Below are positions 3,568 through 3,947 of a stretch of DNA of 64,000 nucleotides, in pieces. The stretch comes from Escherichia coli (GTDB lineage: Bacteria > Pseudomonadota > Gammaproteobacteria > Enterobacterales > Enterobacteriaceae). Both the position numbers and the translations under genes were made by a program. The notes below the pieces were generated by a model. That model had not been told where the DNA came from and made no database searches. It was given only the letters and a program-made list of their open reading frames with translations. Position 1 is the stretch's first letter, and every line of letters starts with the position of its first letter. The stretch lies in assembly GCF_030013595.1 (NCBI RefSeq), contig NZ_CP122768.1. One strand, given 5' to 3'.

Positions 3568-3947
3568 AATGAATCCTTTTTCGATTTATGAGAATAAATA
3601 CTCATTTAAGAGTGAAAACATTTTGCCTGCAAATGATTATCAGGAAATATAACATTATCGAAGTATTCAAATTAACAACTATTAAATAATATTAAACATT
3701 TTTAACGTAAACATTAAGAATATTCATCTTGTTATCTGTCTGTATTTTAAACAGAATTAAATCAGTATTAGATGCCGTATGAATATCTCGAAATGTTGCT
3801 GTGTATCACATACAAATCATCACCGCAGGACCATAGTATTTACATAAGGTTTGTCCCCCGGAGGTAGTCATCGCAGCAATCGAGTAAATTAGCTTCACCA
3901 CGGTATATTGTTTCCGTAGAATACCCATAATTATAAGAGAGGTTGTT

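What the first reader, a model, noticed from the sequence alone, without database searches (positions are those of the whole stretch)
3568..3947. AT-rich, gene-free 380-bp tract upstream of ypfM
Markedly AT-rich (runs such as aaattaacaactattaaataatattaaacatttttaacgtaaacattaagaatatt) compared with flanking genes, and without a convincing ORF. Such tracts are typical nucleoid-protein (H-NS/Fis) binding or curved-DNA promoter regions, and this one may regulate ypfM or yffB.
Basis: inference. Interest (0 to 1): 0.15.

Follow-up and report, generated by a model that had tools for sequence, protein, structure and literature searches.

The report
H-NS-bound divergent promoter spacer yffB/ypfM
The AT-rich tract is the ordinary control region between two E. 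coli genes that point away from each other, already shown in published K-12 data to be coated by the silencing protein H-NS; its only unreported feature is a deeply conserved promoter-like element upstream of the tiny gene ypfM.

Summary
Window 3568-3947 is exactly the 380-bp spacer between the start codons of yffB (- strand) and ypfM (+ strand). Its GC content is 30.8% against 52.8% for the window, the lowest of any 380-bp stretch in the 64 kb. It holds no conserved ORF, no Rfam match and no significant RNA fold.

- An H-NS ChIP-chip peak covers the whole tract.
- Genomic SELEX marks the spacer as an H-NS site.
- A ypfM transcription start maps to window 3929, downstream of TTCACC-17-TAGAAT.
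- A sigma70 ChIP-seq peak sits at that promoter.

Fis binding and DNA curvature are not supported by anything I could test.

Comparison of 65 Enterobacterales loci splits the tract in two. The left ~200 bp is AT- and TpA-rich everywhere but cannot be aligned between genera; it holds weak yffB promoter candidates. The right ~160 bp is a conserved ypfM control region.

That region contains an undescribed rigid module, TTGC-N6-TCACA followed 21 nt later by CATAGT. Its geometry matches an activator-dependent (class II) promoter.

Verdict: ordinary and essentially already known, with a small new lead. Interest is low.

The parts
3568..3947 (.). Divergent yffB<>ypfM intergenic spacer, the tract itself
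   Evidence: GC 0.308, the lowest of any 380-bp stretch in the 64-kb window.
3211..3567 (-). yffB (ArsC-family reductase), first gene of yffB-dapE-ypfN
3948..4007 (+). ypfM, a 19-aa protein (MIERELGNWKDFIEVMLRK)
   Evidence: Detected by mass spectrometry (PMC12529367).
3590..3780 (.). Extreme AT/TpA-rich core. AT-rich in all genera but not alignable between them. Lies under the H-NS ChIP peak.
   Evidence: Myers 2013 Table S3.
3574..3578 (-). yffB Shine-Dalgarno (AAGGA on the - strand), inside the conserved block 3570-3582
3646..3654 (-). Best yffB promoter candidate: extended -10 TGTTATATT, predicted start ~3639 (72-nt leader). Conserved in Escherichia, Citrobacter and Salmonella only.
   Evidence: The Salmonella yffB reporter fusion starts at -97 from the AUG (PMC5137417); Salmonella carries an insertion in this leader. 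No start is mapped in K-12.
3757..3784 (-). Alternative yffB promoter TTCATA-16-TTTAAT, as predicted by Shimada 2014
   Evidence: PMC3946193 Table 1; sequence located. Not conserved across genera.
3786..3817 (+). Block A: conserved tTTCAAAATrTTGC-N6-TCACATnAAA (TTGC 3796-3799, TCACA 3806-3810)
   Evidence: Found at -148 to -166 from the ypfM ATG in 50 of 65 species, whatever the spacer length.
3832..3837 (+). Conserved -10-like hexamer CATAGT (CATATT in some genera), at a fixed 36 or 35 nt from TTGC. Predicted start at 3844 (conserved CA).
   Evidence: The predicted start has not been observed experimentally.
3819..3819 (+). Weak mapped upstream ypfM start (2 reads, 129-nt leader)
   Evidence: Kim 2012 supplement, K-12 coordinate 2589017.
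3870..3888 (+). Block B: conserved ATCaCAGCAATCGgTTAAA at -59 to -41 of P1. This is the position of an UP element or a class I activator site.
   Evidence: The function is inferred, not shown.
3894..3922 (+). ypfM core promoter P1: -35 TTCACC (3894-3899), 17-bp spacer, -10 TAGAAT (3917-3922)
   Evidence: identical to Shimada 2014. The -10 is nearly invariant across genera. Sigma70 ChIP-seq peaks at K-12 2588887 and 2588903 equal window 3949 and 3933.
3929..3947 (+). Mapped ypfM start (A at 3929) and 19-nt leader with Shine-Dalgarno AAGAGAGG (3935-3942)
   Evidence: Kim 2012, K-12 coordinate 2588907, 4 reads. The leader is nearly invariant across genera.
3987..4106 (+). ypfM 3' part and terminator, matching Rfam STnc250 (outside the tract)
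   Evidence: 37.5 bits, below the gathering score of 42. Terminator hairpin at 4066-4101. STnc250 is the Hfq-bound ypfM mRNA in Salmonella (PMC2515195).

Best explanation
The tract is the shared control region of two divergently transcribed units, yffB-dapE-ypfN to the left and ypfM to the right. It has two functionally different halves.

Right half, about 3786-3947 (shown): a sequence-conserved ypfM control region. It holds the sigma70 promoter P1 (TTCACC-17-TAGAAT), a mapped start at 3929 and a 19-nt leader.

Right half (inferred): an upstream element (block B) at the UP-element position, and a rigid module (block A plus CATAGT) that most likely forms a second, activator-dependent ypfM promoter starting near 3844.

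Left half, about 3590-3780 (shown): very AT- and TpA-rich DNA. Its base composition is kept across genera but its sequence is not. It is occupied by H-NS in vivo in K-12.

Left half (inferred): H-NS coats this DNA because of its composition and spreads over yffB. This holds down the weak yffB promoter(s) and the many chance promoter-like sequences that such DNA contains. dapE is supplied mainly from its own promoter inside yffB.
For: - H-NS ChIP-chip peaks cover the tract. The IHF peak covers window 2956-3803. Sigma70 peaks are at ypfM and inside yffB, with none over the yffB promoter candidates (Myers 2013 Tables S1-S4).
- yffB (2.18-fold) and dapE (2.37-fold) appear in the list whose caption says the O2-dependent expression change is seen only in the hns/stpA double mutant (Table S11).
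- The spacer is flagged as an H-NS SELEX site with RpoD promoters on both sides.
- ypfM starts map at window 3929 and 3819. No yffB start was found. A dapE start lies inside yffB.
- The AT-rich core is not conserved in sequence (about 0.4-0.5 identity), yet GC is 0.30-0.49 in all 65 species. Blocks A and B and P1 are conserved.
- There are many promoter-like hexamer pairs on both strands, and TpA steps are threefold enriched.
- The distance from TTGC to the hexamer is rigid, against a variable distance from the hexamer to P1.
Against: - No experiment specific to this locus shows that removing H-NS raises yffB transcription. Table S11 is indirect.
- No canonical H-NS nucleation motif is present; the best matches have 2 mismatches.
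- The predicted start at 3844 was not seen. Kim 2012 reports only a 2-read start at 3819.
- No FNR ChIP peak or predicted FNR site lies here.
- The left half-site of block A is a poor CRP match.
- All K-12 data come from glucose minimal medium or in vitro SELEX.
Confidence: 0.8

Rival explanations
1. Passive spacer. The AT-richness is only the usual composition of a divergent promoter region. H-NS occupancy is a by-product with no regulatory consequence, and both genes are expressed constitutively.
For: Shimada 2014 classes both promoters as 'constitutive', meaning bound by RpoD holoenzyme alone. YpfM is routinely detected by mass spectrometry. There is no high-affinity H-NS motif.
Against: The H-NS peak changes shape between aerobic and anaerobic growth, while sigma70 occupancy at ypfM rises from 321.6 to 816.5. 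yffB and dapE are listed as oxygen-responsive only in the hns/stpA mutant. No yffB start or sigma70 peak is seen in wild type.
Confidence: 0.2
2. Fis-bound or intrinsically curved upstream activating region that drives growth-phase control of ypfM, as at stable-RNA promoters.
For: The ypfM mRNA (STnc250) is growth-phase dependent in Salmonella. Conserved elements lie at -41 to -59 and about -126 of P1.
Against: Only one 1-mismatch Fis motif is in the tract, with no enrichment in the window. There are five short A/T tracts without helical phasing. Neither conserved block fits the Fis consensus G-N13-C with YA/TR (my reading of the sequences).
Confidence: 0.1
3. The tract hides an unannotated small protein gene or small RNA.
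For: A 22-codon ORF (3779-3847, +) keeps its 69-nt length in Escherichia and one Citrobacter. A weak start maps at 3819.
Against: That ORF has no Shine-Dalgarno sequence (my reading of the sequence). It acquires stops or loses its start in Klebsiella, Enterobacter, Kosakonia and other Citrobacter, while the underlying nucleotides stay conserved. No Rfam family matches inside the tract, even at E <= 10 apart from chance viral pseudoknot hits. Folding z-scores are -0.10 (+) and -1.15 (-). No terminator lies between 3844 and ypfM.
Confidence: 0.04
4. Remnant of horizontally acquired or mobile DNA, which H-NS silences as foreign.
For: Very low GC. An IS1 sits in the tract in one strain, and an IS3-family element lies 1.8 kb away in this window.
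Against: The same divergent arrangement, with an AT-rich spacer of similar length (about 380-415 bp), is present in Escherichia, Citrobacter, Salmonella, Enterobacter, Klebsiella, Leclercia and Raoultella. The tract is in 5425 of 5426 E. coli genomes. No repeats typical of mobile-element ends were found.
Confidence: 0.02

Closest known systems
H-NS-bound AT-rich intergenic promoter regions of E. coli K-12 (genome-scale ChIP and SELEX class)
   Same: Low GC and high TpA content. In vivo H-NS ChIP peak and in vitro SELEX site. Overlaps sigma70 promoters. The peak extends beyond the spacer into the flanking gene.
   Different: It lies in ancestral core-genome DNA rather than a horizontally acquired island. 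There is no match to the reported high-affinity motif better than 2 mismatches. One of the two promoters (ypfM P1) stays active and occupied by sigma70 despite the H-NS peak.
Class II CRP/FNR-type activator-dependent promoters (16-bp dyad centred at -41.5; from established knowledge)
   Same: Block A is a 5-6-5 element. Its last base lies exactly 21 nt before a conserved NATANT hexamer, followed by a conserved CA. The right half-site is the CRP half-site TCACA.
   Different: The left half, rTTGC, matches TGTGA at only 2 of 5 positions. No FNR ChIP peak is present. The predicted start has not been observed. Binding by CRP or any other protein is untested.
STnc250 / ypfM small mRNA (Rfam RF01409)
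   Same: The gene served by the right half of the tract. It is an Hfq-associated, growth-phase-dependent short mRNA in Salmonella.
   Different: The Rfam match (3987-4106) lies downstream of the tract and scores below the gathering threshold. The tract is its promoter region, not the RNA.
H-NS suppression of spurious promoters in AT-rich DNA (from my own knowledge of the literature, not consulted here)
   Same: The tract holds many sigma70-like hexamer pairs on both strands under an H-NS peak.
   Different: Whether any of these fire in an hns mutant at this locus is not known.

Membership tests
H-NS-bound AT-rich regulatory DNA | GC content far below the genome average and rich in TpA steps | tested here: met
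   GC 0.308 against 0.528, the lowest 0.06% of 380-bp windows. TpA 0.113-0.129 against 0.039.
H-NS-bound AT-rich regulatory DNA | H-NS occupancy in vivo or in vitro at the locus | tested here: met
   Published K-12 data for a 99.2% identical sequence. ChIP-chip peaks at 2588306-2590027 (aerobic), and 2588247-2588977 plus 2589168-2589958 (anaerobic). SELEX 'HNS' flag. Identity to K-12.
H-NS-bound AT-rich regulatory DNA | High-affinity nucleation motif tCG(t/a)T(a/t)AATT | tested here: not met
   Only 2-mismatch matches inside the tract, at 3652-3661 and 3782-3791. The consensus was recalled from memory.
H-NS-bound AT-rich regulatory DNA | H-NS-dependent change in expression of the flanking genes | tested here: inconclusive
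   yffB and dapE show an O2-dependent change listed only for the hns/stpA mutant. I found no direct comparison of wild type and mutant for these genes.
Curved-DNA promoter region | A-tracts phased with the helical repeat | tested here: not met
   Five A/T tracts of 4 or more bases, at 3577, 3615, 3621, 3699 and 3745, without 10-11 bp phasing. No curvature model was run.
Fis binding region | Fis consensus sites or Fis ChIP signal | tested here: inconclusive
   One 1-mismatch motif at 3738-3752, with no enrichment in the window.
Divergent sigma70 promoter region | Mapped transcription start and sigma70 occupancy for each divergent unit | tested here: inconclusive
   Met for ypfM: start at 3929, sigma70 peak, consensus-like promoter. 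Not met for yffB in K-12: no start and no sigma70 peak in the tract. For yffB there are only a SELEX prediction and a fusion boundary at -97 in Salmonella.
Class II CRP/FNR-type promoter (block A module) | 16-bp dyad centred at -41.5 from the start, with a -10 hexamer at -12 to -7 | tested here: inconclusive
   The spacing fits exactly if the start is at 3844. That start is predicted only. The mapped weak start is at 3819.
Class II CRP/FNR-type promoter (block A module) | Both half-sites resemble TGTGA/TCACA (CRP) or TTGAT/ATCAA (FNR) | tested here: not met
   The right half TCACA is 5/5 for CRP. The left half rTTGC is 2/5. The site is not among those within 2 mismatches of TGTGA-N6-TCACA.
Class II CRP/FNR-type promoter (block A module) | Binding of the activator in vivo | tested here: inconclusive
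   For FNR: no ChIP peak or predicted site at 2588xxx-2589xxx, in wild type or the hns/stpA mutant (Tables S5-S7). CRP data could not be consulted.
Small RNA or small protein gene | Conserved ORF, Rfam family, or stable conserved RNA structure | tested here: not met

The most novel reading that the evidence does not exclude
Block A plus CATAGT (3786-3837) may be an unrecognised ypfM promoter that depends on an activator. It is conserved with fixed internal spacing in about 50 Enterobacteriaceae species. Its regulator could be CRP acting on an atypical site, or an unidentified factor. Together with oxygen-dependent clearing of H-NS from 3668-3859, this would put the 19-aa protein YpfM, whose function is unknown, under a specific physiological signal.
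Probability: 0.4. Interest if true: 0.3.

Novelty: already known. Interest (0 to 1): 0.15.

Why it matters
The tract itself matters little. It is one of several hundred H-NS-bound spacers already listed in K-12 genome-scale data.

Two small points have some value:
- The spacer shows conservation of base composition without conservation of sequence, next to a sharply conserved promoter region. That makes it a clean example for separating 'AT-rich because H-NS or promoter DNA needs it' from 'conserved because a specific protein reads it'.
- The conserved block A module gives a concrete handle on the regulation, and so perhaps the role, of YpfM. YpfM is among the small E. coli proteins most consistently detected by mass spectrometry in the one study read here, and its function is unknown.

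Tried and rejected
- sRNA or riboswitch: the Rfam E-value scan of 3000-4600 gave only STnc250 outside the tract and chance hits. Folds of both strands are no better than shuffles.
- Small ORFs: all five candidates fail conservation.
- RNA stem between block A (ATTGCTGTG) and block B (CACAGCAAT): rejected by eye. Citrobacter changes break three pairs without compensation.
- FNR site: half-sites TTGCT/ATCAC looked FNR-like, but no FNR ChIP peak or predicted site exists.
- CRP core: not within 2 mismatches.
- By inspection of the sequences, sigma54, sigma32, sigmaE and sigma28 consensus readings of block A all fit poorly, as do the PhoB, ArcA, PurR, Cra and marbox consensus sites (consensus sequences from memory).
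- RcsAB-like box at 3715-3728: 2 mismatches, but not above chance and not conserved beyond Escherichia.
- IHF consensus: none in the tract; the only nearby match is inside yffB.
- Salmonella MarA motif: maps to the equivalent of 3751-3765 in S. diarizonae with 3 mismatches, and is not conserved in E. coli.
- Data sources that could not be used: Thomason 2015, Kröger 2012 and Weaver 2019 are not held. The Conway 2014 and Kahramanoglou 2011 supplements are not held. The Cappable-seq table is truncated before this locus. The cap on papers was reached before CRP ChIP data could be read.

Full report
OBSERVATION. The window is E. coli chromosome, read in the reverse orientation relative to K-12 around 55.8 min. 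The genes are ypfN (1852-2076, -), dapE (2080-3207, -), yffB (3211-3567, -), ypfM (3948-4007, +) and acrD (4106-7219, -). The finding's coordinates, 3568-3947, are exactly the 380-bp spacer between the divergent start codons of yffB and ypfM.

Its GC content is 0.308 against 0.528 for the window. Only 0.06% of all 380-bp windows are as low, and every window with GC <= 0.36 overlaps this locus. The 100-bp minimum of the whole 64 kb (GC 0.18) is at 3631-3730. TpA steps are about threefold enriched. No ORF exceeds 33 aa.

HOW WIDESPREAD IT IS. The tract is present at >=95% identity in 5425 of 5426 complete E. coli genomes, with no annotated feature in any listed record. It differs from K-12 at 3 positions, fewer than the flanking genes, so K-12 experiments apply directly.

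A scan for YffB relatives returned 80 loci. In 65 of them ypfM lies divergently upstream of yffB. The spacer is 380-415 bp in Escherichia, Citrobacter, Salmonella, Enterobacter, Klebsiella, Leclercia and Raoultella. Its GC is 0.30-0.49 in every species.

ANATOMY FROM COMPARISON. A MAFFT alignment of 34 spacers splits the tract.

From about 3590 to 3780 the sequence is AT-rich in all genera but essentially unalignable (0.4-0.5 identity to the window). Only two parts of this side are conserved:
- the yffB ribosome-binding region (3570-3582);
- in Escherichia, Citrobacter and Salmonella only, AAATATAACATT (3643-3656). Its reverse complement is an extended -10, TGTTATATT.

From 3786 to 3947 conservation is high. 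The conserved features are:
- block A (3786-3817);
- a CATAGT hexamer (3832-3837);
- block B (3870-3888);
- the ypfM core promoter, TTCACC-17-TAGAAT (3894-3922);
- a nearly invariant 19-nt leader with Shine-Dalgarno AAGAGAGG.

PUBLISHED EXPERIMENTAL DATA AT THE K-12 LOCUS. Coordinates convert as window x = 2592836 minus the NC_000913.2 coordinate.

Kim 2012 maps ypfM starts at 2588907 (window 3929, 4 reads) and 2589017 (window 3819, 2 reads). It lists no yffB start. It lists a dapE start inside yffB at 2589359 (window 3477, 8 reads). Searching its supplement for sequences around the other predicted promoters found nothing.

Shimada 2014 lists the spacer among sites bound by RpoD holoenzyme. 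It assigns TTCACC-17-TAGAAT to ypfM and TTCATA-16-TTTAAT to yffB (window 3784-3757, - strand), and flags the spacer 'HNS' from H-NS genomic SELEX.

Myers 2013 provides in vivo data:
- An aerobic H-NS ChIP-chip peak at 2588306-2590027 (window 4530-2809) covers the tract, yffB and the dapE start.
- Anaerobically the signal splits into 2588247-2588977 and 2589168-2589958. This leaves window 3668-3859 unoccupied.
- An IHF peak lies at 2589033-2589880 (window 3803-2956).
- Sigma70 ChIP-seq peaks lie at 2588887 (window 3949) and 2589585 (window 3251), with none between.
- Sigma70 occupancy at ypfM is listed as 321.6 and 816.5, labelled higher anaerobically.
- yffB (2.18) and dapE (2.37) are in the table captioned as genes whose O2-dependent expression change is seen only in the hns/stpA mutant.
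- No FNR peak or predicted FNR site lies at the locus.

Circumstantial data from relatives:
- yffB is repressed by the sRNA SdsR in Salmonella, using a fusion that starts at -97 from the AUG.
- yffB is up 2.6-fold in a Salmonella fur mutant, with a predicted Fur box in the leader.
- yffB is down upon induction of TosR in uropathogenic E. coli.
- A MarA ChIP peak falls in the Salmonella spacer.

Rfam, even at E <= 10, gives nothing credible inside the tract. The only relevant match is STnc250 at 3987-4106, which is the ypfM mRNA itself. Both strands fold no better than shuffled sequence, with z-scores of -0.10 and -1.15.

All small ORFs lose their start, frame or stop in close relatives. The 22-codon ORF over block A (3779-3847) persists in Escherichia. 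In Klebsiella, Enterobacter and Kosakonia it is interrupted, although the nucleotides stay conserved, so the constraint is not on coding.

MECHANISM. The following is shown:
- the tract is the most AT-rich DNA in the window;
- it is H-NS-occupied in vivo in K-12;
- it contains an active, mapped and conserved ypfM promoter.

The following is inferred. H-NS binds the left half through its composition rather than through a specific site, since the best nucleation-motif matches have 2 mismatches. It spreads over yffB and holds down the weak yffB promoter(s), together with the many promoter-like hexamer pairs on both strands.

The best yffB promoter candidate is the extended -10 at 3654-3646, with a predicted start near 3639. 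It is conserved only in the three genera closest to E. coli. It is also consistent with the Salmonella -97 position, because Salmonella carries an insertion in this leader. dapE, the essential gene of the operon, appears to rely mainly on its own promoter inside yffB. I put 0.8 on this overall picture.

THE UNDESCRIBED ELEMENT. The motif TTGC-N6-TCACA occurs at -148 to -166 from the ypfM ATG in 50 of 65 species, whatever the spacer length (292-1041 bp). The distance from TTGC to a NATANT hexamer is 36 nt in 43 species and 35 nt in 7. The hexamer is CATAGT in 38 species and CATATT in 10. In contrast, the distance from that hexamer to the P1 -10 ranges from 70 to 98. A conserved CA follows the hexamer by 5-6 nt.

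A 16-bp element ending 21 nt before a -10 hexamer has the geometry of a class II CRP/FNR-type promoter, centred at -41.5. This gives a predicted start at 3844. All the indels fall after that point, as expected for a transcribed leader. Buttiauxella keeps TCACA-21 nt-GATAAT but loses TTGC. That fits a promoter that has become less dependent on an activator.

Several points count against this reading:
- the left half-site is a poor CRP match;
- FNR does not bind there in ChIP;
- the only mapped upstream start is a 2-read signal at 3819.

I regard a functional cis-element as very likely. The promoter reading is about even odds, and the identity of the protein is unknown.

COMPARISON AND NOVELTY. 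As a nucleoid-protein-bound divergent promoter region, the tract is already in the literature, though only in genome-scale tables and never studied on its own. Fis binding and classical curvature are not supported. The block A module was not mentioned in any paper I could search. It would be a new member of a known kind of promoter, not a new kind of system.

VERDICT. Observation confirmed. Interpretation supported for H-NS and for promoter function, and unproven for Fis and curvature. The feature is ordinary. Interest is 0.15.

Noticed in passing
window 1-1850: Synteny with K-12 ends just left of ypfN, at about 1828-1844. K-12 has ypfH there. The window instead has an IS3-family transposase ORF at 1073-1795 (+) (NCBIfam NF033516, 299 bits).
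   Followed up: partly
window 3421-3433 (-): The only IHF consensus match near the locus (TATCAACGAATTA) lies inside yffB, under the published anaerobic IHF ChIP peak (window 2956-3803). The IHF signal therefore probably belongs to the coding region, not the tract.
   Followed up: partly
window ~3477 and ~3251 (-): dapE has its own mapped start inside yffB (K-12 2589359, 8 reads). The strongest local sigma70 ChIP-seq peak (K-12 2589585) is near the yffB/dapE junction. The essential gene seems largely uncoupled from the yffB promoter.
   Followed up: partly
window 3668-3859: In published K-12 data the H-NS ChIP signal over this stretch disappears anaerobically, while sigma70 occupancy at ypfM rises about 2.5-fold. 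The stretch includes block A and the CATAGT hexamer. The cause is unknown, and no FNR peak is present.
   Followed up: partly
window 3987-4106 (+): The 3' part of ypfM plus its terminator matches Rfam STnc250 at 37.5 bits, below the gathering score of 42. Back-to-back terminator hairpins (4031-4055 and 4066-4101) separate ypfM from the convergent acrD.
   Followed up: no
L002 (E. coli F374) 3057-4095: An IS1A element replaces roughly window 3568-3852 and the 5' half of yffB, leaving ypfM with only its proximal promoter. 43 of 5426 records cover less than 80% of the tract, so disruption is tolerated.
   Followed up: partly
window 3715-3728: TAAGAATATTCATC is 2 mismatches from the RcsAB-box consensus as I remember it, and contains the palindrome GAATATTC. 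It is conserved only within Escherichia and is not above chance at <=3 mismatches.
   Followed up: yes
window 3211-3567: yffB is the most diverged feature compared with K-12: 2.24% of nucleotides differ. Protein identity over the tblastn alignment, which includes the stop codon, is 96.6%. The tract has 3 SNPs and ypfM none. YffB is only 88-89% identical in E. albertii and a cryptic 'E. coli' lineage, although YpfM is 100% identical and the AcrD C-terminal segment 98%.
   Followed up: no
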